From the NCBI GenBank assembly GCA_051294905.1, contig CM119373.1, positions 3,288,001 through 3,352,000 on the forward strand: 64,000 nucleotides of DNA. Direction: 5' to 3'. The notes below the pieces were generated by a model. It did no database searches, was not told the origin of the DNA, and worked only from the letters and a program-made list of their open reading frames with translations. Source of the DNA: Botryllus schlosseri. Its lineage: Eukaryota. The position numbers were made by a program, and so were the translations under genes. Of the stretch, positions 2,968-51,894 are shown piece by piece. Positions within the stretch are counted from its first letter, which is position 1. Each line of letters opens with the position of its first letter.

Positions 2968-5900
2968 GTGGACGCATCTGACGAGGGAAAGTCGATAACA
3001 TACAGGGAATTGCTGGAGAATTCCAGAAAATGCGCGGCCTATTTACAATGTCTTGGGATCAAAAAGGGAGACTACGTTTCGATTTTCTCAGCAAACAGTC
3101 TCGAGTTCGCCTATCTGACGATCGGAGTAATTGGGTCTGGAGCTGTGCTGACTCCTTGCAAAGATTTTTACCAAGAAAGTAATACGAGCGAATAGCTGTG
3201 TTGAGATAATGATTAATGTTAACATTATTTAAAGACGAAATCCTTTATGAATTCGGCATTACCAGGCCAAGAGCGGTTTTTGTGGACGAGGACCGGCTTG
3301 CCAGATTGGATGCAGTGAAGAAGAAACTCCCATTTCTCGAGGTAATAATTTCATTTTTTCGGGCAAGTAAAATAAAACATTACAAACAGCCAGGCTATAA
3401 CTAGTAAGCAACAAGGTTATAATGACTCGAGTCGTGACTCGACTTGAGTCCGATTCGAGTCGCTATTTTTGGTGACTCAACTCGACTTGAGTTTATCTGT
3501 GCACTGAATCGACTTTTACTCGAGTAACGACACTGTCGGCATTTCATCTATCAGTACTGGTACTTGAAAATGCAACCAGAAACTGTTAAAAGTGAGGAAA
3601 ATCAGTATAATATGAATGTGAAATATTCGATATCACTAAACATGACTATAACTTCGTTCCATGCATATGGGTCCAATTTTATTGCTATAGTTAACTCATT
3701 AAGGCTCAGTAACGGCCCAAAAACGCCACTGAGTCGATTTGCACCATGTGATATGGTGGAAATATAGGGAAATCTCCGAGATTTCATTTCCAGTGTGAAT
3801 TTCAATATATAATTGAATAGTTTATTCATATTGAAATGAACCCGAATATTATCGGCTGACACTCGTCAGGGGTAATCGTCAGCAACTAGTAGAGAATTGG
3901 AAAGAACATTGTAGGCCTATATCAACAATCGTATCACAAAATATGACGTCACCAGCATGAAAGAGAGGGTGTTCAATGTACTATTTTTCGGTGATACACG
4001 AACTCCTTTTGTTGACTTGTTGATTGTATACTGAAGTTCTGTACCTCCAAGAAGCTCTTCCAGTGTGAATTGTAAATCATGTTTGCAACGCTTTCCTGCA
4101 AAACATTCGACTTTCACACCCACGAGACTTGGTGCAAATGAGATAAATACGCAATAGTTACAATGCGATATGCCTGATATCATTGTGGGTTATGATAAGT
4201 GTGTCATCCGCATGAACAGAATCCAAATCACTGCATGGTTGTAGTCCCATTTCAATCGGTGTACTATATATATAACTCATTGAATCAACTGATATGGCTG
4301 AAAAGACAGAATAAGGCACTTGGTAGTAGGCCTACCACTGACTTGATCCATATGGACCTAAGCCTATTTAGTTGGCCACCTTTTTAGTTAGTGAATATCC
4401 TCCTCATCCGGATGATGCGTGGAATGTGTTATATTAATAAATCATTACATTGTTTCAGCATATTTTTGTAATTGGAAAAAGTAAAAGATACGTAACTGTC
4501 GATGAAATACTGGCAAAAGCGAAACCAGGTAAACATATTTCTTTGGGTTAAGTGGAGGTGTCAGATTCGGTTGTGTTATGGCAAGGTCTAAGGTTAAGGT
4601 TAGCGTGAGTCATTTTAAATGACTGACATATTTATACCATTCGAAGTAGTCCTGTAATGATTGTTTGACCCATTCGATTCGTTCAAGTACACCTCAAACG
4701 AGACTTTTAGTTCCGTGAAGTGATTGGGCGTGCTATATGACATGTTGAAAACGTCTGGGGCAAGTGTATGGTTTCAAACCTTTACATTCACATTTACATT
4801 CAGATTGTTGTTGTTTGCGGTATTCATGGTGTTTGTCGACTACTATGGTCATTTACACCAGGCCAATTTCTTCTTTTTTCATTCTCTAGCTGCCGACGTG
4901 TAGCACGGCCCACTCCTAGGCTTTTATAAGACACCGCTTACACCGTTAAGATGGCGTGTAGGAGCCTATATAGATAAACCTTCAACACTTAGGTAGGAAT
5001 TCTGGAGTCGACATCGGTCGGACTCCAGAATTCCTACCTAAGTGTTGAAGGTTTATCTATATAGGCTCCTACACGCCATCTTAACGGTGTAAGCGGTGTC
5101 TTGGTGTTGCAGCGGTGGGCTGTACAACTACGCTATATGTCGCCACAACATTGTCACAAAGTACAATGAAATGGATATGGTCGGTAAAACACCAAGTTAT
5201 CTCTAATTTAATGTAGAGTTGACATCATATTCTTATTGGTCCACACAAAAGGCATGCGTATTTGAGCTTCCCACATCATTAATACTGTTAATACTGTTTT
5301 AACGTCCTAATGAGTGATACTGAAATATTCTACCATACCATGCCCTGCACTCATGCGCACTCGATTTGTTCCTACCATATCTTCCAGTCTTGCAAGTAGT
5401 TACTTCTATACTTGCACTTGAGTAGAAATTTATGACTTTACCTCTATTTGCTTATCACTGATGACTACAACTGCGTCCATCCTCTGGCCGGTAGCACTCG
5501 ACTCGGAAACGAATCGGTCAAGTTTTCGATTTTACCCACTCTAACCACAAATGTCTGACAGAAACATTAAAGGAAGTCGATATTGACCCACAAAACGACC
5601 TCGTCATCGCACCGTATTCCAGCGGAACAACAGGACCCCCTAAATGCGCGTTGATTGCTCACGCAGCTCTGCTTTTAACGATCCAGTCCCAATTGTAAGT
5701 CGGAATGTTACAAAACTTTTTCGACTCGTTATTTTGCGGTTTGAATGCGTTTCGCTCGTCAGTTACACAGGCGGAGGAGGCACGTTCTACGCCGACCGGG
5801 CCATGTATCACGCGGGGGGATTTCAAAGCATTTTAGGCAATATACTCATCGGAAGAAGAATAATCATGGAGAAGGAGTTTGTGTTACAGAAATTGTTCGA

Positions 5901-8900
5901 AGACATTGAGAAATATCGAGTGAGTTACAATTTCACGGCTGCTGTCAAGTGGAATATTCCCCATATGAAGAGTACCGCTGGTCGGCTACAATACAATAGT
6001 ATGTTTTGTAATTTGCATTACTGTGGTTATATTATATTGTATATCAGCCTACTCATGGTTATAAGCACCATGAATATCAGATCGGCTAGCAATACATTTG
6101 CAGCCGACCAGTGTTCTAAGTTTTTTGACTTCGAAAGCTGTTGAGTAAAATTGGAAGCAGTCGCGGAACAACAGTCTAAGTTAGTGGTGCAAGTTTTCAT
6201 ATAGAATCACCCGTTATCTGTAAATCTGGTCAATTTGTACGCTTCCCTGTCAGATAACTGTGGCGACCTGCTTCCCGCCGACGGTAATTGAAATGATCAA
6301 TGCGAAAGACGCGGAAGATTACGATCTGTCGTCCTTGAAAATGATCATCTGCGCTGGAGCTCCAATCGCATCCGCTGCTATAGAACAAATGAGGAAGAGA
6401 TACCGTGTCACTTTTGTTGCGGGTAATAGTATTTGCGTATGATGCAATTTTCTATTTAGTAGAAGACAGGTGTCAAATAGGATACTTGACTATATAGCTG
6501 TATTAAAATGTATGAAAATTAATCACAGGAATAACTCTATCAACTAACTCGAACACAACGTAATAATACATGTATGACCTCTCTTCTAATACTTTTTTTT
6601 TATAAATGGTTCGTGGTGCAGGCTTGTACTGATACAGTTATGTTGACTTGGGCCAGGCCATCATTATCAGTGCGCGAGCCGCATGTTTTGAGAACTTTGC
6701 TGTAAAGCAGTGCTTAGCAACATTTTTCAGCTTACGACCCATCCTGTAACGCAAGTTTCATTGTGCGACCTACTATGAGATGTATGGTCGAACTAATGAG
6801 AACGTAATTCGACGCACCATGATTCGTTTGAGTAACAAGTCCAACTAGATGCCTAAAAGTGAACTTCCACGACAATTCGAGCAAACGAATGTATCGAGTT
6901 TAGACAAGACTATGCGAGATAGAAGATTGCAAACGAGAAAGCGCGCAATCAAGCAGTAATTCGTCTTTTACGTCGAACTCAAAGGGGTTCCGAGTATAGC
7001 TTGCGTCGCCGGAACTGTTAGCTGCTTATAATCGGGCATGATTGCATTTTCAAATTAACGCTCTCAAAGCCTTGTTTGTTTGTTTGTTTGTGGTATTCAT
7101 GGTGTTTGTCGACGACTATGGTCAATGGTCATTTACACCAGACCGATATTCTTCATTCTTATTCCGTAACTGCCGACTTGTAGCGCGGCACACTTTTAGG
7201 CTTTTTTAAAGACACCGATTACGCGCATGAGATGGCGAGGATAGATTCCATTTATTAAAGAAAAAATTTACGCTCCGCGCAACTAGGCCCGAAATTCACA
7301 CCGATTGTTCATCCCCTAATGTCAGCAATTTGGGCTCGTCCGAGAAACGATCGCCAAATACAAGCTATAGCAACTGGAAGCTTCCATAGTATGTGTGTGG
7401 GTGCGTCTAAGAATCGTATGTATAAAAGGGTAGTGATAAGATTGCCCATGGAAGGATGTACGGTTCTGCGAGGTGTTCCCACGTGGGAGCTTCCTAAATT
7501 CGTAAATAATTTCTAGCTACTTGGCGCTACGACCTTGCGTGTGAGCGATCTTTTGAATGGCGACAGCTTTTTCCGCCAGTCATGAAGTAACAGCAATAAA
7601 TGTTGAAGATGTATAATTAAGCGCCCCCTGAAAGTTTGATGACACCACTACTATTATCTCTACCGGTAAAACTGATAATGAAAACGTAGTTTCAATATAC
7701 AAGTGACAAAATATGATGAACCGATTTCATTAATTCACCATAAAAGATTTCGGGCTTTGCGCGAAGATGTCGACGTCCTAGTTTTCAACAAGCATAATAT
7801 TATCACATCTCTTTAATATTATTATTAATTGTGAAAATGAGACAGAGCATGTTACGCAACTAAGATGGAGGGCAGTACTCGCACGCATATTGCGCCTGCA
7901 GGGTTGTTGCATCCGAACCACTCCGAAAGGTGAGGTCGTTGGGAAAGGCCCCGGAATAAGTGGAAGCCACCTCTCTAAGCGGCTCTGTGGCCTGCGTGTA
8001 GTCGATCCATAATAATAAGGAGTTCTTGGAACCGCAACGTATTGGGATGACTGGAGAGGCCACACCGCTGCATGTCTGATTTCCGGTTGATGCGGTTCGG
8101 TGCTACAGACGAACCTGAAAGCGACAAACGCGACTGCTGTCATGATTATAAAACTTGCCACAGACCTCATGCCGAACGCCAAGTATACGCTCTCAGCTTG
8201 GCGATTTCAAACCTGACTCTATGTCAAACTATTCCGCGCTGTCGAAGAGCCAGCAGCTTTCAAGTGAGTTTGAAATCATCGTGCTGCAGATACTAATCAG
8301 GAACACAACAGTCGCTTAACGACTTTTTTTCTGACGGAATGTCTGTAAATGTCTTGCGGGCATATCGTTTAAAATACCGGACAATATTTGGGGACGATTA
8401 TACTCTCGAATATCAGTGACTGCTGCAGTCGTTATCTGCCAGAGAGATCACTAACGTCTCCACGCGTATCTGCAAACATGAACATATCGGGACGATAGAT
8501 AACCAACAGTAAATGTGAACGCCGGCGGCGAATATTCCAAAGCTTGTTTTAACTCGACGACCGTATTGTACATATATGAATCCGTTCGCACGACGCATTA
8601 TATAGTCAATTTAGGATGATAGGCCAAAACGCGTGACCGAAGACGTGGAAATAGATAAACCTCTAACACTTAGGAAGGAATTCTGGAGTCAACCTCGGTC
8701 GGACTCGAACCCGCAATCCATTGGTGTTGCAACTGTGGATTATACCACTACGCTATTAATAAGTCTCGTATTCTGATGCTGATAAGAGATGACAGACAGA
8801 CTATTCCAGCAGAAGATTTATTAGTATATAATCCCAATTACATCTGTACTAAGAAACAATGCGAGAAAGCAAGATGACTGCACTACTGTGAGCGCGAGCG

Positions 8901-19469: not shown

Positions 19470-19718
19470 TTACTCTAACATCCACCTCGGCCTAGAGTGC
19501 CCGATGTCCCAGTTCTTTTCGATGTTGATCTTTTTTGAAGCCGCGGCCCCTTTCTACTAGTTCTTTCCATTCCTTGTGAGTGTTTCATTTCGCCGGGTCT
19601 TGTTCTGGGCTTTTTGTCGCCGCAAGGACGGCAACGGTGGGGGAAGAGGAGCCCAGATAAACCTCCGACGGGAATCGAACCAATCTGGCGAGCGCTTATC
19701 GTTACCACTGCGCTGTCT
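19470..19718 (-). mobile_element. Second tRNA-derived SINE-like element (3' end uncertain)
   Basis: Minus-strand A-box CAGCGCAGTGG (19705-19715) and B-box GGTTCGATTCC (19671-19681), with no full cloverleaf, followed by a GC-rich body. Confidence 0.5.
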
Positions 19719-21293
19719 TCAATATGAATATATTTTTAATTATATATTGAAGTTCTGTACCGCTGAGCAGACTTGGACAAGATATTTCTAATGTAATTTC
19801 TGGTTTTCCTGAGCATGTTACAGAAGAACTGTAGCCTATAGTGCGAAAGGAACGAAGCTCGCTGTACTTGCCGTTCTCATGCTTTTGAGAATGAGCTCAC
19901 CAGGGCTTTGGAGCCGGAGCCCCGGAGCCGTGCATTTTCAGCGGAGCTCTACATAAAATTCAGGTGGAACCGGAGCCGGTTGTTTGGACGGTAGGTCCGG
20001 CTCCGAATTATTTCATAAGATGCTTGTGCTTTTACTAATGGTTGAATTCACATAATCTTACGATAATCGTTCACAAGATTAAGACATCTTTCCTCGTTGG
20101 CACTACATTTTCCAACTAACCAGTAACCATGTTCAATGTTCTTACATAGGCACCAAACCTGGGTGCTTAATCCGCGCTTAATCCGTAATTACTTGATCAC
20201 GGGTAATACCCGCTATTTCGTTTTCAGCACAACAACGATGGCCGATTGTGTGGTTCGAAAAAGAATAAAAACCATGCATGTCGCAAAACGGGATGCCTTA
20301 TGTGAGCTGAACAATTTACCTTATTAGTAATGTAATGAGACGAATATATAAGCGACGCCAGAGAATAAAAACGTGATCTTGTCGCACAATTCGATTTGGA
20401 GGCGCTCATGCCGCACGCCAAGAAACATCGTGTCTATTCTGAATTGGATGAGCAAATGCACGACCTTGGTTGATAGTTTTTTTAATCGTAGCGTCAAAGT
20501 GGACAGTGTGTTATCGTTTATGCCTGCGAATTGAAATTCATTCCAGCGTACGATCGTTTACTCCAGTAGCGATTTTGGCACGTAAATAGGGAAATGCATC
20601 GAAGCAGCCCTGATCACTATATTGTCGCGATGCGAGCCAGTCAATGGCCACGCCCTGGTGTTGAGTATAAGAGGGCAATCAGTGATTAAATGCGCGCTTT
20701 CCAATTTGTAAACGTCAAGTTTGCGTATTTATTCTTGTCGGCTAGATATACTCGTATTCTTGAATTGTCGCGCAATGTCACTTGCGAGCATGCAGTTTAA
20801 TTGGTTACTGACTTGTACGACTTACGTACATGTACACTGTACACAGTTTTACACTATACAGTGTACGGAGTTGCAGGGTTCCAGGTTCATTGAACTTTCT
20901 AATATTGATGCAACACCAGGTTCTCAGTGGCACTAATTCTGAGTTTATTCGATTCGTTTTGAAGGGGAACCTATATTCCACTAAAGTTAATCGATGACGG
21001 ACGGACCGGTAACGAACGCACCAATATCGAATCTCAAACCATTGGGTATATTAGGTAAAAAGTAGATTTCTTCTGATAAGGTCGCGACATGCGCTCATCT
21101 CTCCAGTTACAATTGAACAAATCGCACCATTTCAAGGTTAAATTGGACATGTGTGGCTTGATATTAACGAGCGCAGTACCGGTATTAAAACGTCATGCCA
21201 CCGTTTTAACGCTAAGCAATGTGCAGGACTGCGTGCAATGGCATGGAGTATAAAATGCGTTCTCGTGCGGATATGACGTCATCGACAGACGAC

Positions 21294-22238
21294 CAGTGTT
21301 GGGATCAAGTCACTGACTTCGAGTCACGAGTCATTTCGAGTCCTTGCACATTTTGACTCGAGTCAATTCAAGTCAATCAATTTTCGAAGGTGACTCGAGT
21401 CAAGTCAAGTCACTTGATTTTTGGAGGTGACTTGAGTCAAGTCGAGTCAAGTCAAGTGAAGTCACGAGTCAAGTCACAATTCAAGTCAAGTTGCGTTTTC
21501 GAAGTATGAGGCATGGTTACGTCATTGCATTTTGAAAGCTGTCTGAAAAGATTGAGTGGTCATTGATTTTGAACCGATGAACGAATATAGAGTTAAGTGT
21601 AGACGCAGGATTGCGCTGTATCGGTCACATATACGTAGAACTGTTAAATTACGTAACTAATCGCATAGACTCAGTTTATAGTTACCCACCAAAATAGAGA
21701 ATAGAGAAACGAATTGAGAAGAAGCAATACATTAGCCATTTACAAATTGATATGATACAATTCGAGCCTGCGCCAATCATTGATAAGTATATAAACTATA
21801 ATAGAATTCAATTTCAATAAAACAGGAGGTTTGGTTAAGGAAACAACAGAGAACAGAAAGAGACATTTTGCTATTAAATTACTTTACTATACTAGTTTAC
21901 GGCAGCGTAAGCTGTAAGCTTCGATCACATCGTTTGCGGTCAATTTATTTGTGAGAGAACAATGGAGGCTCAGCAAAACGCACGAGCATTGAATGATTAG
22001 TCGCTCTCACGGGTTACACCAGCGTTTGGCGAACAATCCGAAAATATGCAAGATATACAGAGGTTTTATCTGCGCCGATTACTTGATGACTTGAAATTGA
22101 CTCGTGAATTTTGCTCCGAGTCACGAGTCAATCCACATTTCTGATACGCCGAGTCAAGTCAAGTCAAGTCATTTTAGCAAAGTGACTCGAGTCAAGTCAA
22201 GTCATACGAAAAAGGTGACTCGAGTCATCCCAACACTG
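21294..22238. mobile_element. hAT MITE family A, copy 3
   Basis: TIR CAGTGTTGGGAT...ATCCCAACACTG; perfect TSD CAGACGAC; collinear with 14101-15003. Confidence 0.9.
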
Positions 22239-22424: not shown

Positions 22425-23053
22425 CAATGTTCCCTCTAATTTTTGAAGAGTCTGCGCACACTTACCAACTCACTGCGCAGACTCTCGGACAATAGTGCGT
22501 AAAGACTAAAAAAAAGGTCATCACTTCGGATTTTTTGTGCGCAACTAGGATTTTCTGTGCGCAGATACCAGAGATGAGCGGATTTGAAATTTCTATGTCC
22601 TAATCCAATCCAAATCCGAACCTTCAAATCCAAATCCAAAACCTAATCCATAACTTTTTCATATTCAAGTCCATGTCCAATCCTAATCCGATTCCAACTG
22701 GAAATTCAGAAAAAATACTAATTTATGTAATGGAGGGATTCGAAAATTTTCTTTCACAACCAACGATTCACTTGATTCAAGATAACTTAGTAACTATAAG
22801 TACATTAATAACTGATCTGAATAAAGTTTGTCGCCATTCGCCACACGACATTTCAATCTCCCAGAAAATAGGTAAATCCAATCCAAATCCTAATCCGTTC
22901 CGAAAAAAATGTCTAATCCAAATCCAATCCAAATCCGACAAAATTTCACAAATCCTGTTTTTTCAAAACCTAATCCTAATCCATGCTCATCTCTGGCAGA
23001 TACCATGTCATCACTGCGCATTTGCGCACGTGCGCAGCTTAGAGGGAACATTG
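22425..23053. mobile_element. hAT MITE (CAATGTTCCCTCTAA TIR, TGCGCA repeats)
   Basis: 15-bp TIR; TSD CTCCAAAG / CTCCAAAA. Confidence 0.85.
22569..22995. mobile_element. hAT MITE with AATCC subterminal repeats
   Basis: TIR CAGAGATGAGC...GCTCATCTCTG; perfect TSD GCAGATAC; inverted sibling at 23084-24286. Confidence 0.88.
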
Positions 23054-23248
23054 CTCCAAAACCCTGCTGAGACTAATCTAACCCAAAGATGAGCATGGAT
23101 TAGGATTTGGGAAAACCGGAGCTGTGAAATTTGTCGGATTATAATTGAATTAGGATTTCAGGTTTTTTTAATGGATTAGGATTGGATTTACCGATTTTCG
23201 GGGAGATTGATGTCCTGAGGCGCATGGCGACAAAGTTTTTCGTCCTAC

Positions 23249-23828: not shown

Positions 23829-23952
23829 GTCCTACCAAGGTGACTTTGCATGTACTTTGGCACTCATTATGCGTTTTAGTTCTTTTTACAGAATGATAGG
23901 CATAATATGTGGGCTTTCAAAGACGAATTCCGAGTTTATATCGAATTAGGAT

Positions 23953-27129: not shown

Positions 27130-30100
27130 TTAGCTGGGAGAAACTTTTGCCAAAAACGGGCCGTCTTCGCTTTTCATTTTCATATCCAGCGTGCCGCCTG
27201 TGAAAACGATGATGTTGTGAAGACTATTGTGGTGGTTTTGTTCTCAATTGCAGACCGTAAGAGGTTCAACACCAGGGTTGTAATGACTCGAGTCACTAAC
27301 ACAATGACTCGGACTCGACCCTCTATATATCAAACAGATTTCATAATATTACCTGAAGAATTTCGAGACAAGTTTGCAAAGTTGCTCATCACCGCGATGG
27401 GAGTGTCCCCCGTGGCCTGTGCCACGCGGTGCTCGACCAGGTAGAACATATACTCGTCGTAGAGCAGCCTGATGAGGTGAAAGCTCCCGAAGCTGGCCGC
27501 CGAACGCAGGGTCAGGTCCCTGATCACCATCGAGCTGAAAACGCAGACAAAGAGATTGTCGGTGGCTGAACCGGATGGTAAAGTAGCACATAATGAAGTT
27601 TATAGGTCCGGTTACTTATATTCGAATGAAATATAATTCAAGTTCATATAAGGTGACTTTCATTTGAGTGATAACTAATTAGATTAGGCTAGGACGGTGT
27701 TATTTGAGTGGATGTTATTGAAATTGGGCTGGGTCACTTTCGTTTGAGAGACATTACCAACGATGGTCATGAGTCAAAATTAGGTGGGTCAATATTGTAG
27801 AGTTAGGTCAAAAAATGTCAAAATTGTTTACAAAGTTAAAACTTTTTTGCGACCTGCATTTCGTTTGTATCGTTGATTTTGCGCTGTCGGTGAACTTATC
27901 ATTTGACATTCCACAGCTTGTAGCTTACTTTACAGGCCTACCGTTGTAGACGGGCCTTTGTCTACTCATTGTGAATCAAAAACATTCAAATGAAACAAAT
28001 AGGTTGACATGGTGTTATGCTCAACGTATTGCAATATCCTAACTGAAGCAAGACTGCGTGGGCATTGGTTCTTATATCAAGAAGCGCATCATGAAAAATT
28101 GTGACGTAGGCACCATTGCCAGAATGAAGCAACACGGTTTGTCATCAGCAGTGTACGCACAACTTCAGTGTTGTCAGCCAACAACTGCTGCCGTTGAACG
28201 TTCTTTCTCCATTCTTGGTAAGCTACTTTGTAAGGACAGACACTTTCTACCCGAGAATGTGGAAAAGTATCTTTCGTTGAACTACAACAACTTTTAATTA
28301 CTTCTACCATAACGTGTATTATAACTACTGGAATTCTTCGTAGGGCCAGATTTCGTAAAGACAAAGTTTTTTCGTGTAAAAATGTGTCAGCATTTGCGCC
28401 GAAAAAGTTTTTTCTTTGGGCCAAACTACTTCGTAAGGACAGACAGTTCCAACCAGAAATGAAGATAAGTAGTACAATTCTAACGTAACGTGGGGAAACA
28501 CCTAATTCGAATACCTTAGGTCAAATTTGGTCAAAATCAAGATTTTTAAGGTCAAAAATTGATTTTTGAGGTCAAAATCTTCCGTTTTTTTAGGTAAAAA
28601 AAATCGCCCTAGTCTGTGAATGTGATAGTTATCAGTATTAAACGCACGGCTCAAAGATCAGACAATAGTCCCGTTCTAGCCAAGAGTGACAAATAATTCA
28701 AACTACCAACCGTCAACGACCAACTACTTGATTTTTGAGCAGTCCTAGTTTTATTTCTAGTTGCGGATTCTGAAAATACAGTAGTTGGTACAAATCTGGC
28801 AAGAACGATTCTACACATAAATCAACAAAATCTCAAAACCCTCCCCACCTGTAGAAGCACCACTTCAACAGGAACTGCCTCGCGGCTTTAGTGATGTCTG
28901 TCGATATCTCGTGCGGCTTGAGTATCTCGATCACGACAGAGTCCAGCCACTCCGCCCACTGCTCCAGGCTCCTCTGCTCGGACAGGGCCTCCTTGAACTC
29001 GGCCTCCAGACGCTTCACCACGGCACCGTCGCACTGGCACACCCAAGAGGCTTGCTCCTGCGAAATCACAATTTCAATTTGGGAAAATTGTTTGAGAAGT
29101 GATTTGTGTTGTAGGCGGAGATCACCAACTCCGTAAATAAAGGATTGAAAAGTATACAATTAATTAGAAATTGATATTGAAAAAAACCTCGGTATTTTTA
29201 GCTTATACTCGTCAGGGTTGATCGTCAGGAGTAGAGAATTCGAAGTCACATTGTATTGTATTAATTGATTGATAGAACCAAAGAGTCTCTTCAAATATTG
29301 AAAGTATATTTTGGGTCGTTAAAACATCAATGATCGGCCAGAAGACGTTTACTTTTACCCAAAGACACCGTCTCTGGCCAGGGTTGTAATGACTCGAGCT
29401 CGAGTCATACCTCGAGTCGCGATTTTTTAGTGACTCGATTTGACTCAAGTCATTTTTACAAATTTGAAAATGACTCGACTAGAATCATTCATGTTATTAC
29501 TCGAGTCAAAGCGGTCTGCTCATCCTAAGACCTAACAAGCTTACCTGGACATTGGAGAAGTCCACCCTGTTCAGATCGGCCAACATCTGTGTAATCTGAT
29601 TGCCGTTCTGCAACACGGCCCTGGCAGCCTGCGCCAGATGGTTCAGAGATGTGTACCTGCGGAGGGTTTGCGAGAACGCAGACACCGCCGTGATCTGTCG
29701 ACAAAACGTGACGTTACGATGTAGCAATCACACAAAAATGACACATTTTTCACATCAATCACTCATATTTTTTTAAGGTAAATAAAGTCAAAATATTCCA
29801 ATCGTACTAGTCATAACGTAACGATGGGAATTGATACCCTGCGTCTGAATTAACCGCAGAATTGTCCACATTAACAGGAGCTTTTCTCATGCGATGTTCA
29901 CCGCCCTAGCATTTTGGCTCCATAAAACACCACAATTCCAACTTACCTTGATTTGAACCATACACTCGGGCATGGATCCTCCGTTCAACGCAGAGTTCAA
30001 AGTGTTGTCGAGACCTTTGGCAAAGTTCCTAATGGCTTGCGTCAAGGCGCCTGCGGAATGAAATAAGTTACGACACCACATTGCGCAAACGTTCGTACAG

Positions 30101-33100
30101 TAGGGCTGTTCAGAAAGAACTTTTTTTGTCATATTTCACTGGCTACATGATAAAATGGTTGCCTAAAAACGGTGCACACCAACTTTGGCTCAATTCCAAC
30201 CTATAGAAGCATCCCTAAAGAAAAGGTTTTGGACATATTTATTAAAAATTTGGCTCAATTCATACCCGTAGAAGAGACATTATTTATTGGACTACGAAAT
30301 TTTGGAATTTTTTAGGCTGCACGCTATACTCACTAGGTATCGGCCTTAAAACGTCTGGAATCAACACGTCGACGAGGCTCTGATACATGAGATGGTCGCA
30401 TTCGCCCACCCATTTCTGAACGGGCGGCCAATTGCAGAGTACGATCAGCTTGTCGTGAGGTAGCTTGCTCTCAAATTCGTCCGTTCTGAAACAAATTAAA
30501 ATTATTACGATCAAGCTAAAGGTCAGAAATCTTGGGCATTGGTTTCTAACTTTTAGGATGCTAATTTGGCAAGAAAAAGGGTTAATTTCAAGAGTCCGTC
30601 AGTGCAAAAGACCACGATACTTAGCCTAAACCAGCGGTTAATTTTGAGGGTTCAGTAGCGAGAAGGATGTCAATAACTACCCCGAACCAGCGGTTACAAT
30701 ATTTGATGGGTTGATTTGAACGGCAAAAAGGTAAATGCTCGGGTTATATTGGAAAAGGATATCAAAAGTTAGCCGAAACCATCAGTAACAACATTTGGGT
30801 GCGTTAATTTGGAGAGCAAGAAGTTGGTAATAATAGCATCGGATTCACCCAATTCCAAACAGAATAAAAAACAATCAATAAATAGGTATAGTCATAAATA
30901 AACTAGCTACTGACTTCAATCTATATTCCAGGGTTGTATTGACTCGAGTCACGGTTTTCTGGTGACTCGACTTGACCTGAGATATTTTCTCATAATACGG
31001 AAATGACTCGACTTGAACTCAAGTCATTGCGCATGACTCGAACCGAGTCATACGACACGAGACTCAGACGGCCAAATCCGACATTTCATTGTCATTTCGA
31101 ACAATAGTAAAGTCACCACACTATTGGGATTTTGTCTATTGCTACTGGTAATTGAAAATATGACCAGGAACTGTTAAAAGTGAGGAAAATTTGTTAATTA
31201 TAAATGCGAACCATTCGATATCACTAAACAGAGTTATAAAAAGTGGGTTTAACAAGACTTTAACTGGAAACTGAGCAGTCAACACAATGACTTGGACTCG
31301 GACTCGAGTCAAAACTATAAAAGTGAGATTAACTTGTGACTCGGAGCCTCATGACATGGTTACAACCCTGCTACAATCCAATACAAAATTACAATACCAA
31401 TCCCAACTTTTCTTCGCTTCAGTTTTATTGTAAATAAACGAAGTCAACACGGTATTGGATGCATTTTTTAACTTCTGCGTCATAAGTTTGAGTTACAAAT
31501 TACATTACAAGTTCTACTTGAAATATGTCACATTTTATATCGACAGAAAACATCTGACCATCCGTTCAAACTGGTAGGCCTCTCACGAAAAGTAGGCTCC
31601 ATAAACTCACAAGACTTCCGAGGGATCTAAAGGTTTACTGCTGCGCCAGAACGCGTGCCACAGCTCGTCAATCATTTGAAACTGGAGCGTAACAACGATG
31701 TCGAGCAGGCTGGAGCAATGGTCTCGGTACAGATCTTCTAGAGCGGAGATATCGTCCTGAAAATAAATGCAAAGTGTTACTAAATAGACAGGATCAAGAC
31801 TAAAAACAGAGAGAACATGAAAAATTGTGTTTAGATTTAAAATCTTTGAGATATCAGATTTGATATACCGGTACAATGGAATTTCATATTGATATCGAAA
31901 TAAACCCGAATATTTTCGGCTGACACTCGTCAGGGGTAATCGTCATCAACTAGCACAGAATTGGCAGAGCTTCTCGGAGGTACAGAACTTCAATATACTA
32001 TTGAATAGTATATTCATATTGAAATATATCGAAGTTCCGTGCCTCCAAGAAGCTCTTCAAACACTTTCCAATTTTCTGCCAGTTGCTGACGATTACCCCC
32101 GACGAGTGTCAGCCGAAAATATTCTGGTTCATCTCATTATGAATCTACGATTCAATTGTACTTATGCTTATGTCGAGTCATTGTGCATGACTCGAACCAA
32201 GTCATATGACTCGAGACTGGGACGGCCAAGACAGACATTTCATTGTAACTTCGAAGAATAGTAAAGTAACCACAAGATAGGTATTTCGTCTATCGGTCCT
32301 GATACTTGGAAAATACGGCCAGAAACTGTTAAGACTAAGGAAAATTACAACATTACGAATGCGAGCCATTCTATATCACTCGAACCGAGTTGAGAAAAGC
32401 GGGTTTAAACGGATTGAACTCAGAACTGAACCGTGAACAACATGGCTCTGTCTCGTCACGGTTGTGACCAAGTCCGAAGGTTCCGAGTCACAAGTCAATC
32501 TCACTTTTATATTTTGACTCGAGTCAAGTCGAGTCATTTTCAATTCATCACCGAGTGCAAGTCATTGAGCAGAGGTTCAAGCTCGAGTAATACGAGTAAT
32601 ATATTAAATTTACCACGCTTTTAGCAGTTTCTGGTGGCATTTTCAAGTATCAGTACCAATAGACGAAATACCAATAAGGTGGTTGCTTTATTTTTCTTCA
32701 TAATTATAATGAAATGTCGGTCATAGCCGTCTGAGTCTCGAGTCATATGACTTAGTTCGAGTCATGCGCAATGACTCGAGTCCAAGTCGAGTCAATACAC
32801 AGATTGACTCGAGTCAAGTCGAGTCATTTCCGTATTTTGAGAAAATGACTCGAGTCAAGTCGGGTCATCAGAAAATCGTGACTCGAGTCGGATTCGAGTC
32901 ATTCCAACCCTGGGACTCGGACTCGAGTCGAAACACTATGACTCGGACTCGACCCTCTACTTGCTGACTTGGACTCGGACCTCACTCGGTGGCGAATCGA
33001 AAATGACTCGACTTGACTCGAGTCAAAACTATAAAAGTGAGGTGGACTCGTGGCTTGCTTACAACCCTGGCACTGACCACGGCATAGGCCTGTCTACTTC

Positions 33101-39100: not shown

Positions 39101-42100
39101 AAACACACCACAGCGGGAGGTTGATATTTGATACTAAGAGCAGGAACATCACAAGCAATGTTTATCGGATGGGTGCGTACTTGAAATGGATGTCTTTGAT
39201 TCAATGGTTTTGCTTGTGCTATATTTGTAAACTGCGCAGCACTGGGCAATACGAATTTGATAAATTCCAAGCTAAAACTAAATTCCATAACATTACGAGG
39301 TGGGGTGAATGCATTTCCACCAGCAAACATATTGGTACCAAGCAAACTGCGTTTAGATTAGGGTAGGTATTTCGGGATCGAGATTTTCCACGATTTTTAT
39401 TCCTAAATCCCAGGATTAGCGTAGTAGAAAAATGTGCATGCATTCATATATTGCGATACTAAACGCTAAAACCTGTGAGCACCGACAATATAACAATTTA
39501 GGCGGTTTATGATTTTGATTATCTTGATTATACTATTCCAAATGTGCACCTTTTCTACAAACCACACTGATATCTTTGTATCAATAGGCTTGCAGGCAAT
39601 TAAAATGAGCCGGCACAGCATAATTTTTAATAACGGCCGTTCGGCTGATGTTAGCAATGAAGTTTTAGCAGTATTGCAGCAAAACTTGAAAAAATAAATA
39701 AAAAAAGGCTGCACACCAATTTTGGCTTAATTCCAACCCGTAGAAATGTAGCTATTGATGTTCAAAATTTATAATTTCAAATAGCTATTTAACCATGGGT
39801 AGTTCTGTAATAAATAATGAAAGAATTAGCCACCGTAAATACTATATTTTTCAAATCCAAAACTTTGCACTGTAATAACTTCACTTATACTGGTTGGAAT
39901 TGAGCTAAATTTGTAGTGCATCGTTTGTTTAGATAATCTAACAATTACATGGGGTAGCCAGTGAAATCTGTAAAATTTTTATTTTTATCAAGTAAATCCA
40001 AAATTTTTTTCTTATATAGCAATGCTTCTACAGTAGGCCTGTTGAAAAATTTCCTTTCAAATTTCACTGTCTATGTGATAAAATTATTATGTTGGTAGAA
40101 CAACACTTCGCACCAAATTTGGCTCAATTCCAACCAGTAGAAGCGAGATTCTTGCAGTAGAAAATTTTGAATTTATCACATAAAAAATATAAATTCAAAT
40201 TTTTTTCTGCCGACCCCATAAAATTGTTAGGCTGTCAGCAGAGATGATGCACACCAAATTTGGCTCAATTCCAACGAGTAAAAGCAAAGTTATTGCAGTA
40301 GAAAAATTTGGATTTGAATAAAATAGTATTTACGGTGACTCTTTACCAATTTATTATAAAATGATGGAATTGGAAATTTTGCTACTGCAATAACTTCGCT
40401 TCTAGTGGTTGGAATTGAGCCAAGTTTGGTGAGCATCATCACCACCGACAGCCTAACAATTTTATGGGGTAGACACAAAAGATTTGAAAGTTAATTTTTA
40501 GTTTTTATAAGATGAAATCAAAATTTTCTACTGCAAGAATCTCGCATCTACTGGTTGCAATTGAGCCAAATTTGGTAAGCAGCGTTGTTTTAGCCGACAA
40601 AACAATTTTATCACGTAGCCTGTGAAATTTGAAAGAAAAAATTGTTTTTGAACAGCCCTATCTACAGGTTGAAATTTAGCCATAATTGGTGTAGCATTTT
40701 TTTAGGCTACCTAACCATTTCATCAAGTAGCCAATAAAATTGTAAAATGTACAAGTTTTGAGTGACCTTTAAAAGGGCGTACCATTCTGATGTAGTTCAT
40801 TGTCATGTCATAGTCGGTATTTTTATCACAGAAATGTGGAGTGCTCAACACAATCAGCTAATATTGTAACGTTACTTTAAGAACAAAATACGAGATATGG
40901 CACTAGTTCAGCCATGGTAGTTGATCTCTAGAATTCTTGGGATTTCAATCGGATTAATCCTGGGATCGGGACAAGAAAACATCTTAAAATCTCGCATTCC
41001 CAACGCTAGCATAGATCCAGCAAACACACCGTTTAGCATTTGCACAAATAACAATTACCTGATGACCAGCGGCTGGCGAAGTGTCAAAAAACAAGGCGTT
41101 CGCTGTGCTGTTCGGGTTCTGACTGTGGCTGTTGGTGTAAAGCTGAGACCCGTCGGTGTACTGGTAGGAAGACGCGCTGAAAACCAACAGTCGTGTACAT
41201 GCTTTATCTCACATTAAAACTGATGTGCACACAGAGATTGTGAACATATCATGTACCGGGGGGGGTTGTATGTGTCATTTTGATATGACAAGTTTGTCAG
41301 GAGTGTAATTGTTAACAAATATATCGCTTGCTGACGGTGCAAACATTACTTAACATGGCAGAACATGGCTTTACCCAAATATACAGAAGAGCTTAGACTT
41401 GGAGATACAGAACTTCAATATACAATTGATAATGCATTCATATTGAAATGGACCCGAATATTTTCGGCTGACACTCGTCAGGGGCAATTGTCAGCAACCA
41501 GTAAAGAATCGGAAAGAAGGAGTTTGTGTATCATTTAAAAACAGTACATTAACCTTAAACAATCTCTTCTTGATTATTCGAAATATCTTGCCGTCGTATT
41601 TTGTGATACGATTGTTGATATACAATGTTCTTTCCCATTCTCCACTAGCTGCTGACCATTACCCCTGACGAGTGTCAGCCGGAAATATTCGTGTTCATTC
41701 CAACATCAATACATTATTCAACTGTATAGAATCGAGAATCACAGTGTGCTGAATGATATTACGGGTGTGCAACATGCAGATGTCAACAAAATAGTCATGA
41801 TCATAGTAGCTTGTTTCTATTTCGCACATTTTGAGAAAATTAAGTAGTTTTTGCAAAATTTCCATTTTTTCGGCGCATGTTTTCGACAAACATAACCGAG
41901 ATGAGGCCAAAATGAAAATTTTACAAAAACTTGATTTTCCCAGAATTTTAAAAAAGGATCTCAAAATTCCAAAAATGATTAATTGCTACTTTGATTCCAC
42001 AGCGACTATTTATCCCGACCACGAAAAAAAAGTTTATGGTTTCACCACTGGTACTGCCATAGGTAACAATTAGCTGACACAGTCCAAATAACGCTAAATT

Positions 42101-42180: not shown

Positions 42181-42586
42181 CTGATAAATACAAAAACATA
42201 CCTCACGCACACGCATAGAAGACACCCTCAAGACAAAAATACTCAAATGCTTTGATTAGTAGGCTACCACAGCACAATGCATTACAGGCTTGCCAATATT
42301 AACAGCCCATAACGTCCGTTAAAATCACAACTATCATTGAAACTTATTCAGGGTGGCTAACATTGCTACAGATTGGTGCAAGTTCAAAACTATTTGTTTT
42401 AGCGTGGATTCAGGCGATGTCATTATGAATATCCGACAACTTTGCCTCTAGTAATCATATCTACTTCGCTGTTACGTTCAAACTGTTTCTTTGCGGCCGA
42501 AGCATTTGTATTTTGTGTACTTGAAGAGCTTCTTGGTGGTACGGAAGTTCAACATACTACTGAATAGTATATTCATATTGAAATAA

Positions 42587-42620
42587 ACCCGATTATTTTC
42601 GGCTGACACTCGTCAGGGGT
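42587..42620 (-). ncRNA. Minimal hammerhead ribozyme, core intact, stem III variant
   Basis: Minus strand reads ACCC-CUGACGA-GUGUCAGCC-GAAAAUAAUC-GGGU; the stem III palindrome is broken by one substitution. Confidence 0.55.
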
Positions 42621-43492
42621 AGGCCTAATCGCCAGTCGAAAATTGTCTGGTTTATTTCAATAGCAATATACTATTCAATAGTACATTGTGTACGATTTCA
42701 ATGTGGTAGCAATTGGATCTGAGCGCGTCGATTTGATTGAAATGCTGAGTCTGAGTCCAGTGAAATCAATTTTGCAAAGTGACTCAAAACAAGTCAAGTC
42801 ATGTGAACAAATTGACTTGAGTCATCCCAACATTAATATGACATCGTTAAGAGCATAATTGAATACTCAAATCGAAGACAAATCAGTCAGATGCTCGGTT
42901 TTGTCCCGCCTTTGCAATGATTAATGCAGAAAAATGAGGGTTTAGGACAAGAATCACGTTAGTCAGCCAAGTGCACATCTAAAGCTAATGATTGTAGGCA
43001 TTGAATATCTCGATAGTAAACATTTTATTAAGCAGGCATACCAAAAACACACAGCAAACCGAAACAATTTTGAGCGGACTGCTCTCTCTCTTTCTACATT
43101 GAGGTAAACTTTTTGATAGAATCACGACAAAAATCACAAATCCGTTCATGTCCATCTACTTTCCATGAATCGTCAAGTGACCTGGTCATTCTCTACACTC
43201 AGATGAACCTGAGACCAGCGCCGAGGACAATGATTCCAGTACTCAAATCTGAATCGAGCATTAATTCTTGATTCGAGTGCTGAAATTTCATGCTCCTTAT
43301 CAACGAGAATTACATTTTGATAACATTATATGGTATTATACCAGCGCTACTTGTAACAGAATTAGGAGAAAAAACACAAATCTATTAATTTCCATCTACT
43401 TTTCACACTGTTTTCCACACTATTTTAGAACACGGCACACTTCACACGGTGTTATCATTTCTACGGATCCCGTTTCACGAGATCTCAACAAC

Positions 43493-46143: not shown

Positions 46144-46259
46144 TTAACTTTTCAATATAGCAATATAATGTACGGGCGCCTTTCGGGAGTGCTTACGAAA
46201 AGGCGGCGGGCCTAGTGGTACGTCGACATCTGCTGAATAGATTTCATTTTGTTTGCGCT

Positions 46260-48227: not shown

Positions 48228-50802
48228 ACCGCTGTCAATCGTGATTTTGCAATGCAACCTGATTTCAGGTTGCCAAATACTGAAAGGCTATGGGTGCCAT
48301 AGGCTATCTTTCGTAAAGCACTGCCAAACTGAGTGAGACAGTGCGAAATTATTGTTAATTATTGTTATCTGAATATCCCAGTGATAAAGAAGAATGAGTC
48401 CAGGCCATATTTGTACAAACTAGTTATTTGACGATCAATTAACTACTGTATTTTCGAGTAGTTCTAGTTCTAGTTGCATATTTTGAAAAGCGAGCAGTTC
48501 TAGTTTTATTTTTAGCTGCGCATTTAAAAAATTAAGTATCCTAACAACTAGCATCGTTTGGCGTGAATCGTGATACTGATGTTCAGTTGCGTGATGTTCT
48601 TGCAGCCATTGCTAGCTCAGAGTCATCACAACAAATATTGGCGTAGAGGGGGGTGGGTTTTAGGGGTCGAAACACACCCATTTCAAGCTTACACTCATCG
48701 TCGTACGGTAGCCGATCAAATTATTATAGAATAATATGAATGAGTGGCTTCAGAATTGCATCTAGCTAGTTGTGTTTTAGGTGTGTGTAACAAAAACTGA
48801 GCATTTCTAGTTCTAATTGCGCATTTTGTAAACCCAGCAGTCTGGCAATTCAATTATGTCTAGAATCTAGGCTAATAGAAAAGAGTGGCAGGCGGCTGGT
48901 AGGAATTGAAGTTTCTCTCAGCCTAGGGTGGTTTTGTTAAAGCAAACACAGCCATGGATGTTGCCAGGATGAGCTCAATGGGACATAGGCTACAGTAATT
49001 ATCCGAAGAATCTCCATTACGGTAGCTTACTGTCCTAGACGCACTCGTTAATCATATAAAACGTACTGAAAAAACAACTTCTCATCGCGACGATAATACA
49101 ATGCCGATAGTGCCAAAACAGTGTAAACGCGCCATACTTCAAATTACGGTGGCAAATATCTTCAAAAAGCGTCAAAACCGGAAAATTTGACACGCGAACA
49201 CGCTAATTGACGACGCTTTCAAACTGCGCTTATGACATCACCGTACACGGAAATCGGCGAAAGTGATGCGACAATCGCAAAGTCGCTATTCCGTCAAACG
49301 CTACGGCGAAGCCTACTCCGTTCAGAAACGATTAATTAAACTCAAGGCGCGGGCTTCAGCGGATAGGCGCCGTTTAAAACCCTACTTATCACGGCGAAAT
49401 AGTCAAGGACGCACGCTGCAGAGCTCTTGAAATTTTAGTATATAGCTCTAAGAGCGTCGTAAAGATAACCTTGCTACTAAGCCTGTGCGACTACGGTACC
49501 GCGTAGCGTACATACGACAGGCTTGTGCAAACTACTGGATTTTCCAAATGCGCTACTAGAACTAGAACTAGACTAGAATTACTCTCTTTTCGAAACTAGC
49601 AATTACAACTAGAAGTCTAGCTTCGTGGCCTAGTTGGTTAGGCGCTAAAGTTCCATTAGGGCTAGAACTAACGGCATTAAAATATACGCAACTAAACAGA
49701 ATTTTGTCGGAACCGGGTCGATAATTCACACGACTATTTGCGTCTATTAGTACAACAAAATCAACGGCGATTCATACAGATAGAATTACCACAATGCGGG
49801 ATAAACTATACTCCTGAGCGAGCGATGGCTGCGAGAACATTACACAACAGAACACCGGTATCGCGATTCACGTAATTCCACAACCAAGTTATTTTTAAAT
49901 GCGCAACTAGAACTGGAACTACTCGAAAAACAGTAGTTCGTCGGTAATTCAACGTAAACTAACTATACTGGTAGTCCGTACTGGCCTGTTGCCGACTGCT
50001 ACTATCTTTTCCGCTAACTTGTGAAACTCAAATAAACTATCCGGCGCGGTTACAACCAAGCCCTGATGACAGACAGATGCACCACCTTTCCGTGACACGC
50101 GGCGGCCGATTTTTAAAACGCCAATTCGTTGGTTTAAAGATCGACACAAAAGATTTCTTACGCCGGCGGGTCCCTGCTTGCTGCGGACGTTGTGGCACGG
50201 AGTTTAAACCGACATAAAGCAAACAAAAGACGATCGACTCGTCTCTCGTTATTATGTACCAGCCTCGGACACAATGAATAGGTGTCAGGTCTTTCCCGGT
50301 CGAAAGTAGCTGGTAAGTGATTTTCAGTCGCTCAAAGACTGCAAATTATTGACATTATGTTCGAGATTTGTACATATCTAATCGAAACGGCTGAAATGTT
50401 ATAAAATGCGCGATTGTCCGAGTAGAACATCCGCGAAAATGCGGTTTATACAACACGACACATTTTGAAGAGCTTTTCGGAGGTAGAGCACTTCAATATA
50501 CAATTGATTATACTATTCATATTGAAATAAACGCGAATATTTTCGGCTCACACTCGTACTCACACTCGGGTAATCGCCAGCAACTGGTAGAGAATTGGAA
50601 AGAATATTGTATATCAACAATCGTACAATAGACTACGAATCACGGCCCAACAAAAACAAAACTGCAACACGATATCGAAGTCATGATCGGGTATAGGCAC
50701 AGGCATACTTTGCGCAAAATCAACGTAAAAGTGCCACTCGACCAGTACTGTAATATCACGGTTTGAGGTGTACATTGTACAATAAAGAAATACAGAATCC
50801 CG

Positions 50803-50981: not shown

Positions 50982-51643
50982 CGGCACCGCTTTTCAGCAC
51001 ACAGTTTTTATGAAGCACGGACCTATTTTATTGCCTCGTAATCTGTCGTCATGGAGATTCTGTGATTGCGTGGGAATCAGACTAGTACCAACTACTGGAA
51101 TCTCAAAATGTGCAACTAAAATTAGAACTGACGACCTTTAAAAAACCGCAATTAACCATCGAAAACACAACTGATTAATAACTAATACGAAGTGTGAATG
51201 AGATGAGCAGGATCGGCGTTTTAAAGGATGGGGTTTAACTATAACTAGAACTAGAATACTCATTTTTTTTACATCCGCAACTAGAACTAAAACTAAAACT
51301 ACTTACTTTTCAAAATCCCCAACTGTAACTAGAATTACTCATTTTTCAAAATCCACAGCTAGAACTATAACTAGAGCTACTCATTTTATTAAATTCGCAA
51401 CTAGAACTAGAACTATAAGAACTACTCAATTTTTTAGACTCACAACTAGAACTAGAACTACTCACTTATTAAAATTCGCAACTAGAACTAGAACTACTTC
51501 GTAAATATTGCTTGGAAAATACTGCAAGATCATCACACAACATAACGCCAGTATCATGATGCACGTCAAACAACGACACATGTTGGCCAGTTGATAGCCT
51601 ATGCCACTATTTCTTTTCGAAATTCGCAAACAGAACTAGAAGC

Positions 51644-51894
51644 GCTTCTTGGAGGTACAGAACTTCAATATTCAATTAAATAGTATATTCATATTGAAAT
51701 GAACCCGAATATTTTCGGCTGACACTCGTCAGGGGTAATCGTCAGCAACTAGTAGAGAATTGGAAAGAACATTGTATACGGTATCAACAATCGTATCACA
51801 AAATATGACGTCACCAGCATGAAATTTCGAATGAGACTCTCTGTGTCAGCCGAAAATATTCGGGTTCATTTCAATATGAATATACTATTTAATT
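51644..51894 (-). mobile_element. Hammerhead repeat insertion with inverted partial copy
   Basis: Minus copy plus an inverted fragment from 51843. Flanked by AGAACTAGAAGC at 51632-51643 and 51895-51906, though the host sequence is itself AGAACT-rich. Confidence 0.7.
51703..51736 (-). ncRNA. Minimal type I hammerhead ribozyme, intact core
   Basis: Minus strand reads ACCC-CUGACGA-GUGUCAGCC-GAAAAUAUUC-GGGU. Confidence 0.75.

What the first reader, a model, noticed from the sequence alone, without database searches (positions are those of the whole stretch)
3802..51894. Dispersed non-coding repeat family built around a minimal (dimer-type) hammerhead ribozyme
Seen: about ten full or partial copies of ACCC-CUGACGA-GUGUCAGCC-GAAAAUAUUC-GGGU at seven loci (near 3840, 29200, 31904 and 32095, 41452 and 41661, 42587, 50531, 51703 and 51843), each inside a conserved 130-200-nt body with no ORF. 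The motif has the CUGANGA/GAAA/NUH core, a 4-bp stem I, almost no stem II and a palindromic AAUAUU stem III. Two loci have 12-14-bp flanking direct repeats and most have an inverted partial second copy. Established: minimal type I hammerheads with palindromic stem III, thought to cleave as dimers, mark Penelope-like element pseudo-LTRs and metazoan non-LTR retrozymes. Inference: this is a non-autonomous ribozyme retroelement mobilised by a Penelope-like reverse transcriptase encoded elsewhere.
Basis: partly seen in the sequence, partly recalled or inferred. Interest (0 to 1): 0.85.

Follow-up and report, generated by a model that had tools for sequence, protein, structure and literature searches.

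The report
Knotted hammerhead in Penelope retroelement stubs
This very common sea-squirt repeat has the back-to-back layout, optional 35-base tail and target duplications of Penelope-type jumping-gene ends, and it carries a hammerhead RNA motif whose one-base-pair second stem is likely braced by a seven-pair knot with upstream sequence; self-cutting is predicted but untested, and most copies here are damaged.

Summary
Eleven hammerhead-bearing pieces lie at seven loci, plus four downstream-only pieces and an eighth locus, mostly in introns of an ascidian RFX gene. The layout is that of endonuclease-bearing Penelope-like elements (PLEs): variably 5'-truncated copies joined head to head, a ~35-nt tail on one end only, and 8-14-bp duplications at 3 of 8 loci. 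Sequencing contigs show the same two 3' ends 35 nt apart. The pieces are best read as truncated pseudo-LTR retrocopies, not a tandem retrozyme. No RT/GIY-YIG partner was found, and no genome was held. I found no covariation, no excess core conservation, no RNA ends at the cut site, and folding programs favour inactive hairpins. All 11 pieces span the predicted cut, so uncut RNA was likely copied. The scan has already noted this knotted motif many times in this and other genomes. Verdict: known element type, probable new ribozyme variant, activity unshown.

The parts
3788..3801 (+). Left copy of 14-bp target-site duplication (right copy 4058-4071)
3800..4022 (-). Longest 5'-truncated copy, no tail; hammerhead 3840-3873 with A14 changed to U; knot strand intact
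4020..4060 (+). Inverted piece carrying only the tail
19718..19761 (+). Eighth locus: downstream stem-loop and part of the tail, no hammerhead
29153..29256 (-). Decayed tail-less copy in an RFX intron; core 29200-29215, G12 and loop II altered
31871..32161 (.). Four-piece locus: on each strand a tail piece followed by a truncated tail-less hammerhead copy (partial tandem), the two halves head to head; core 31918-31933 (-) intact, 32099-32114 (+) broken
41385..41518 (-). Truncated copy with tail; intact core 41466-41481, palindrome and 7-bp knot (A-U in place of G.U)
41517..41728 (+). Inverted long tail-less copy; GAAA box altered; 49-codon open frame up to the core's TGA
42513..42693 (.). Copy with tail (42521-42621, minus; core intact, palindrome and knot strand lost) plus inverted tail-less piece (42633-42685, plus); 8-bp duplication 42513/42686
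50465..50638 (-). Single copy with tail; core broken by a 7-nt insertion
51632..51906 (.). Best-preserved locus: 12-bp duplication (51632/51895), copy with tail 51637-51832 (minus), inverted tail-less piece 51843-51894 (plus) starting inside loop II
51740..51746 (-). 5' strand of predicted pseudoknot (GCUGACG), pairs with loop II 51718-51724
51703..51736 (-). Type I hammerhead motif: stem I 51733-36/51703-06, CUGACGA 51726-32, G10.1 51725, loop II 51718-24, C11.1 51717, GAAA 51713-16, palindrome AAUAUU 51708-13, C17 51707; predicted cut 51707/51706
51637..51671 (-). Optional tail, about 33-35 nt, a weak stem-loop with an A/C-rich loop
51637..51692 (-). ATG at 51692, 15 nt after the predicted cut; candidate start of the parent element's ORF (inferred; this copy has a stop, the 50.5k and 42.6k copies are open)

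Best explanation
These are short, 5'-truncated, mostly decayed copies with the end structure of an endonuclease-bearing Penelope-like retroelement, and their hammerhead motif likely folds with a one-pair stem II braced by a 7-bp pseudoknot and would cut only slowly, as a dimer or with protein help. Shown: the motif, the head-to-head layout with 3' ends pointing outward, a tail on one end only, TSDs, variable 5' ends, and complementarity of loop II to the upstream strand. Inferred from published PLE biochemistry (PMC11167929): the element's protein nicks both target strands and primes reverse transcription at two internal sites about 35 nt apart, giving one end with and one without the tail, and it copies back across the uncut hammerhead until it stops early. 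Inferred from the PK hammerhead structure (PMC11300833): G10.1-C11.1 plus the knot stand in for helix II, and AAUAUU from two copies completes helix III. Two small hairpins (core with loop II; GAAA with the cut site) would hold free RNA in an off state. The parent RT/GIY-YIG element was not found here.
For: Layout: inverted partner at 5 of 7 loci; tail on exactly one outer end at 4 of these 5; TSDs at 3 of 8 loci. This matches Fig. 2 text of PMC8557442 and Pen2a of PMC3846280: inverted pLTR, 31-bp tail, 9-bp TSD, tail coding the ORF's first residues. In DNA run X1 (44,577 contig pieces laid) loose ends pile up at 51644 and 51679, 258 contigs each, with unlike AT-rich flanks; X2, same sample, gives 194 and 188. 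330 contigs run on upstream of 51832 in partly shared sequence (agreement 0.57). All 11 hammerhead pieces span the predicted cut, as PMC11167929 reports for uncut templates. Knot: 7 of 7 loop bases pair (6 Watson-Crick, 1 G.U), duplex -9.6 kcal/mol; 0.44% of 20,000 random 20-nt window stretches do as well; 0 of 20 viral and 0 of 76 metagenome chance matches reach 7 bp. A 1-bp stem II with a 6-bp knot is catalytically fast in microbial hammerheads (PMC3088659; PMC11300833).
Against: No RT/GIY-YIG ORF in the window and no partner protein found. No compensatory change in 14 pairs over 8 copies. Core mismatch rate 9% equals the upstream body's 9% (downstream 14-15%). In contigs, core bases vary at 1.1-3.3%, like their neighbours. 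Predicted minimum-energy folds of monomer and dimer are non-catalytic hairpins (-12.2 kcal/mol against +5.2 for the hammerhead without knot; the program cannot score knots). The knot strand repeats the core heptamer 14 nt upstream, so a local duplication could give the complementarity without selection, and the knot was spotted after the fact. No RNA ends pile up at the cut site in two cDNA runs. Three core- and palindrome-intact copies sit sense-oriented in RFX introns, which fits low activity.
Confidence: 0.7

Rival explanations
1. A dedicated non-autonomous PLE derivative (retrozyme-like unit of about 250-300 nt) that is transcribed on its own and copied in trans.
For: Very high abundance (44,577 contig pieces in X1). 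No coding partner found. The two longest window copies stop within about 15 nt of each other, 150-165 nt upstream of the core. A preprint argues that animal retrozymes derive from PLE pLTRs (10.64898/2026.07.22.740005). A deleted subfamily exists (loose ends at 51832 and 51836).
Against: No tandem array at these loci; only one partial tandem in the window and low-depth go-back joints in contigs (short contigs could hide longer arrays). 5' ends vary widely. RNA reads are rare (4,152 of 12.9 million records in X23), equal on both strands, and 99% run on into unlike sequence. No copy starts at the cut site.
Confidence: 0.15
2. Same PLE origin, but the knot is incidental (local duplication of the core heptamer) or the motif is a catalytically dead vestige that serves as a protein-binding or start-site signal. 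This overlaps the main reading on origin.
For: No covariation; inactive hairpins are the predicted minimum-energy fold; in the Anolis PLE the hammerhead was not needed for insertion in vitro and no RNA-seq reads ended at the cut (PMC11167929); no helix IV plus A-rich linker as in the crystallised PK hammerhead.
Against: Complete 7-of-7 pairing at the place where a 1-bp stem II needs it (0.44% by chance); every core base, G10.1-C11.1, stem I and the palindrome are all present together in the majority sequence; common family-level variants (8-21%) are listed in the flanks but none above 3.3% in 51719-51735 (a weak hint, 116 rows were not shown).
Confidence: 0.25
3. A palindromic DNA element (MITE or Helitron-like) in which the hammerhead-like motif is chance.
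For: The window holds many palindromic MITE-like repeats; the inverted pieces look like terminal inverted repeats; no Rfam hammerhead family matches.
Against: The two arms differ in length and end at two different sites 35 nt apart; inner junctions differ at every locus; TSD lengths vary (8, 12, 14); some loci have one arm only; strict descriptor matches are rare in controls (mean 0.03).
Confidence: 0.03

Closest known systems
Pseudo-LTR insertions of endonuclease-bearing Penelope-like elements (PMC8557442 passages and Fig. 2 legend; Adineta vaga Pen2a, PMC3846280 passages; Anolis PAc, PMC11167929 parts 1-2 of 4)
   Same: 5' truncation, adjacent inverted copy, optional 30-40-nt tail at one end, 8-14-bp TSD, partial tandems, hammerhead just before a candidate ATG, copies spanning the uncut site.
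   Different: No RT/GIY-YIG ORF seen in the window or found in databases, so the clade is unassigned.
Minimal type I hammerheads of metazoan PLEs (Cervera and De la Pena 2014, PMC4209133; parts 1-2 of 4 and supplement file 2, part 2 and passages)
   Same: CUGANGA/GAAA/UH core, G10.1-C11.1, short stem I, palindromic 15.2-16.2 region implying dimers.
   Different: Their descriptor needs stem II of 3-7 bp and the consensus has about 6 bp plus an extra base after A9; this motif has 1 bp, no extra base and a predicted knot. 'Pseudoknot' does not occur in the supplement file searched.
Pseudoknot (PK) hammerhead (PMC11300833 passages, PDB 8YDC) and the 1-bp-stem-II knotted hammerhead of PMC3088659 (passages)
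   Same: Stem II reduced to G10.1-C11.1; loop II pairs over 6-7 bp with a strand 5' of stem I.
   Different: The crystallised form presents the knot strand in a stem-loop (helix IV) joined by an A-rich linker; here only 3 nt separate the strand from stem I. Stem III here is a 2-bp palindrome needing a partner. No Rfam match. Activity unknown.
Metazoan non-LTR retrozymes (PMC7229834 part 2 of 6; 10.64898/2026.07.22.740005 part 1 of 5 and passages)
   Same: Short non-coding-looking repeat, type I hammerhead, long TSDs, low GC.
   Different: Retrozymes are tandem 150-450-bp units with canonical hammerheads and abundant circular RNA; none of these was seen here.

Membership tests
EN+ Penelope-like element insertion | Inverted 5'-truncated copy next to the main copy | tested here: met
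   5 of 7 hammerhead loci
EN+ Penelope-like element insertion | Optional 30-40-nt tail at one end | tested here: met
   Two 3' ends 35 nt apart in window copies and in contigs
EN+ Penelope-like element insertion | Target-site duplication | tested here: met
   14, 12 and 8 bp at 3 of 8 loci; none at the other 5
EN+ Penelope-like element insertion | Contiguous RT plus GIY-YIG ORF in some copies | tested here: inconclusive
   None in 192 of 192 window frames; protein and contig searches negative (48, 49, 86-89, 95, 96); no genome held
EN+ Penelope-like element insertion | ORF start near the hammerhead, tail coding the first residues | tested here: inconclusive
   ATG 15 nt after the cut, 19 open codons in two copies; no homologous protein found
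Minimal PLE hammerhead (PMC4209133) | Core, G10.1-C11.1, palindromic stem III | tested here: met
   intact in 3 of 11 pieces
Minimal PLE hammerhead (PMC4209133) | Helix II of 3-7 bp and extra base after A9 | tested here: not met
   1 bp, no extra base; descriptor read
Minimal PLE hammerhead (PMC4209133) | Self-cleavage as a dimer | not testable with these tools
   No assay; no RNA ends at the site in cDNA runs X21 and X23, which such libraries may not show
PK hammerhead (PMC11300833) | Stem II of G10.1-C11.1 only; loop II complementary over 6 bp to a 5' strand | tested here: met
   7 of 7 pairs; 85.7% of cells paired in 8 copies
PK hammerhead (PMC11300833) | Covariation of the knot | tested here: inconclusive
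   0 double changes in one young family; no sister family obtained
PK hammerhead (PMC11300833) | Helix IV with A-rich linker to helix I | tested here: not met
   Only 3 nt between knot strand and stem I; a weak wobble-rich helix would abut stem I
Rfam hammerhead families | Covariance-model match | tested here: not met
   None at E up to 10 in the window or in 51680-51790
Non-LTR retrozyme | Head-to-tail tandem units each with a canonical hammerhead | tested here: not met
   No array at any locus; one partial tandem of truncated pieces
Non-LTR retrozyme | Abundant linear or circular unit-length RNA | tested here: inconclusive
   Reads rare and embedded in other sequence; library type may lose small circles

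The most novel reading that the evidence does not exclude
A branch of animal Penelope-like elements uses a hybrid hammerhead that joins the pseudoknot brace of fast microbial ribozymes to a dimer-only stem III, and that switches between an off fold (loop II paired to its own core) and an on fold (loop II paired to an upstream copy of the core sequence). Uncut RNA would serve for reverse transcription, and cutting 15 nt before the start codon would occur only on dimer or protein contact. Standard descriptors and Rfam miss this form, so thousands of ribozyme copies per genome would be uncounted.
Probability: 0.45. Interest if true: 0.62.

Novelty: new variant of a known kind. Interest (0 to 1): 0.4.

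Why it matters
The element type is known, so the repeat itself is ordinary. The ribozyme build is what could matter. The role of hammerheads in PLEs is an open question, and tested ones cut slowly or need protein (PMC4209133, PMC11167929). A 44-nt motif with a predicted knot, a competing off fold and a dimer palindrome gives three separately mutable parts for a cheap assay. It also shows a class that the published descriptor (stem II of 3 bp or more) and Rfam both miss. I did not find a pseudoknotted PLE hammerhead in print in the searches (listings; passages read in some). Lunse et al. 2017 on short-stem-III PLE hammerheads was not held and may bear on this.

Tried and rejected
Whole-genome search: no genome held. 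Rfam: no hammerhead hit; the miRNA-like hits are palindromes. Exact-core scans of metagenome and prokaryote collections: 0 matches; tail pattern in viral contigs: 0. Relaxed hammerhead patterns gave 20 viral and 76 metagenome loci; none had stem I of 4 bp or more together with a knot of 5 bp or more, so I used them only as a chance background. No sister family in the window under a relaxed descriptor. Partner protein: word-seeded searches with the upstream and downstream peptides found nothing at E up to 10; ESM Atlas best score 0.76, uninformative; the full HMMER search gave 2 hits that are singleton ORFs called over other copies of this repeat, with no RT or GIY-YIG domain; contig scans with one of them were negative. 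No RNA holder was listed among indexed runs. One search reported variants only for 51719-51735, so the knot's 5' strand was outside its view and covariation could not be read. Summed contig depth is about 10^5 times the flanks, but the tool states this is no copy number; I claim only thousands of distinct copies. Published PLE hammerhead tables read by eye (44 rows, File S2) show stems II of 3 bp or more; 13 text hits in the Naiad, Chlamys and Hydra supplement showed no 1-bp-stem-II knot (two search terms only). The idea that the upstream frame is the end of a GIY-YIG domain rests on a recalled resemblance and was not confirmed. Supplement file 1 of PMC4209133 was not searchable and bioRxiv supplements are closed.
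Full report
Setting. The window is animal DNA of about 40% GC. It holds an intron-rich AMP-binding-enzyme gene on the plus strand (exon frames at 2968-6439) and an RFX1/2/3 gene on the minus strand, mapped as 16 exon matches from 63991 to 27333. The best named relatives of an RFX exon are ascidian (Styela clava 67%, then Clavelina, Phallusia, Ciona at 59-60%), so the host is most likely a sea squirt; the species was not determined. No genome was held. Six of the eight repeat loci lie in RFX introns, one in an intron of the other gene, one between genes.

Observation. The 26-nt core has 7 matches with up to 3 mismatches and none in 100 shuffles. Eleven pieces at seven loci carry the cut-site region; four more pieces carry only downstream sequence, one at a new locus, 19718-19761. 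A strict type I descriptor passes 4 of the 11; 3 keep the palindrome; 2 keep core, palindrome and knot. All four are on the minus strand, sense to the RFX transcript.

Anatomy of the insertions. At 3.8k, 41.4k, 42.6k and 51.7k two truncated copies are joined head to head, 3' ends outward, one ending after a tail and the other about 35 nt earlier. At 31.9-32.1k each strand has a tail piece followed by a truncated copy, and the halves are inverted. 50.5k is a single copy with tail, 29.2k one without. TSDs of 14, 12 and 8 bp flank 3 of 8 loci (chance 0.3, 0.6, 3.3%). Contigs of DNA run X1 give an independent view: 44,577 pieces were laid on 51450-52050, and loose ends pile up at 51644 and 51679 (258 contigs each; 194 and 188 in X2, same sample) with poorly agreeing AT-rich flanks. 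This copy has private changes at 51643, 51672 and 51678, so the true ends lie some 6-8 nt further on, near 51637 and 51671. Upstream, 330 contigs continue past 51832 in partly shared sequence that resembles the longer 41.7k copy. This is the PLE signature: an inverted 5'-truncated copy and a 30-40-bp tail at one end (PMC8557442, passages); Pen2a has an inverted pLTR, 31-bp tail and 9-bp TSD, and its tail codes the first residues of the ORF (PMC3846280, passages). In the Anolis element the protein cleaves and extends both strands, and the tail is the stretch between two internal RT start sites in an AC-rich stem-loop (PMC11167929, parts 1-2). The tail here folds weakly into a stem with an A/C-rich loop (z -1.4 to -1.9, not significant). 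An ATG lies 15 nt after the predicted cut and is open for 19 codons to the tail end in two copies; I read this as the parent ORF start, by inference only.

The ribozyme motif. Stem I is 4 bp, the core is canonical, stem II is only G10.1-C11.1, and stem III is the palindrome AAUAUU. Before consulting the scan's notes on this point I noted that the 7-nt loop II pairs base for base with GCUGACG, 3 nt upstream of stem I (51740-51746 with 51718-51724; -9.6 kcal/mol as a duplex; 0.44% of random stretches). None of 96 chance descriptor matches reached 7 bp. The crystallised PK hammerhead also has only G10.1-C11.1 under a 6-bp knot (PMC11300833, passages), and a natural 1-bp-stem-II hammerhead depends on its knot for fast cleavage (PMC3088659, passages). 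The published minimal PLE descriptor needs 3-7 bp in stem II, so this motif fails it, and Rfam finds nothing.

Evidence against activity or selection. Eight window copies show no double change in 14 pairs. Mismatch rates are 9% in the core, 9% upstream, 13% in the knot strand and 14-15% downstream. In X1 contigs the 15 listed variants over 51719-51735 are all 1.1-3.3%, catalytic bases included; X14 is similar. This is the pattern of neutral decay after insertion. Frequent variants of 8-21% are listed only in the flanks, a weak hint of constraint on the source lineage, with 116 rows unseen. Nested-structure prediction prefers hairpins that pair the core with loop II and GAAA with the cut site, in monomer and dimer. 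The knot strand duplicates the core heptamer, so chance duplication is a real alternative; it also suggests an on/off switch. In RNA run X23, 4,152 of 12.9 million records were laid, equally on both strands, 99% running on into other sequence, with no pile-up of ends; X21 likewise shows none. These are fragmented cDNA libraries and cannot exclude cuts or circles. All 11 pieces span the cut site and none starts at it, so the copied RNA was likely uncut.

Partner. No RT or GIY-YIG domain in 192 of 192 frames. Database searches found only two spurious ORFs over other copies of the repeat. Whether these are truncations of a full element or a separate short element is therefore open; the varying 5' ends and upstream continuation favour truncation.

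Earlier scan notes. 138 notes in this genome fit 'hammerhead Penelope'; of the 24 rows shown, many describe the same knot, and several claim covariation across families and GIY-YIG fragments upstream of such motifs. I could not check those two claims, and they are not counted as evidence. Look-ups by sequence returned nothing, so I cannot say which notes concern this exact family.

Verdict. The feature is real. As an element it is a new member of a known kind. As a ribozyme it is probably a variant not described in the papers I could search: a knot-braced, dimer-type hammerhead in a PLE. Shown: motif, layout, complementarity. Inferred: knot formation, dimer need, insertion mechanism. Untested: cleavage. 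Interest 0.4.

Noticed in passing
window 27333-63991 (minus): RFX1/2/3 gene, 16 exon matches to the Styela protein; three core- and palindrome-intact hammerhead copies lie sense-oriented in its introns (51.7k, 41.4k, 31.9k), the last about 110 nt from an exon.
   Followed up: partly
window 2968-12443 (plus): Intron-rich AMP-binding enzyme gene (PF00501; by recall acyl-CoA synthetase/luciferase-like).
   Followed up: no
window 36196-36800, 37649-38332, 39699-40660, 60460-61075, 30094-30249, 43757-43899: Family of about 600-bp palindromic MITE-like elements.
   Followed up: no
window 4928-5102, 22823-23238, 23247-23830: Other long palindromes, 72-97% self-complementary; the first gives a spurious miRNA hit in Rfam.
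   Followed up: no
window 14099-16866, 21292-22235, 29378-29486, 32482-33055, 35449-35810, 38689-38764, 42737-42832: Dispersed family with internal 33-37-bp AGTCA-rich tandem units and short palindromes; resembles non-autonomous Helitron/Helentron or MITE types by recall only.
   Followed up: no
window 33402-33996, 44822-45034, 51237-51498, 62903-63044: Dispersed family with 36-42-bp tandem units; the 51.7k insertion's 12-bp TSD resembles this unit.
   Followed up: no
window 28043-28294 (plus): hAT transposase dimerisation-domain remnant (PF05699, E 2e-4) in an RFX intron.
   Followed up: no
window 41519-41731 (plus) and 3800-4022 (minus): One reading frame runs through the whole repeat with a single TGA, which is the core's CUGA; length differences between copies upstream appear to be in frame. 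Could be the parent ORF's end abutting its own start, or chance.
   Followed up: partly
P0047, P0048: Public protein collections hold spurious ORFs called across copies of this repeat in which the core TGA has mutated.
   Followed up: yes
window 3917-3922, 42622-42628, 51778-51782: Short palindromic micro-insertions (AGGCCT or CCGTA type) inside three copies.
   Followed up: no
PMC8557442 supplement, Naiad consensi near parts 13-15: Several Naiad 3' ends show CUGANGA and GAAAC halves joined by long paired stretches; seen by eye only, may be hammerheads that the authors listed as core or half-core.
   Followed up: no
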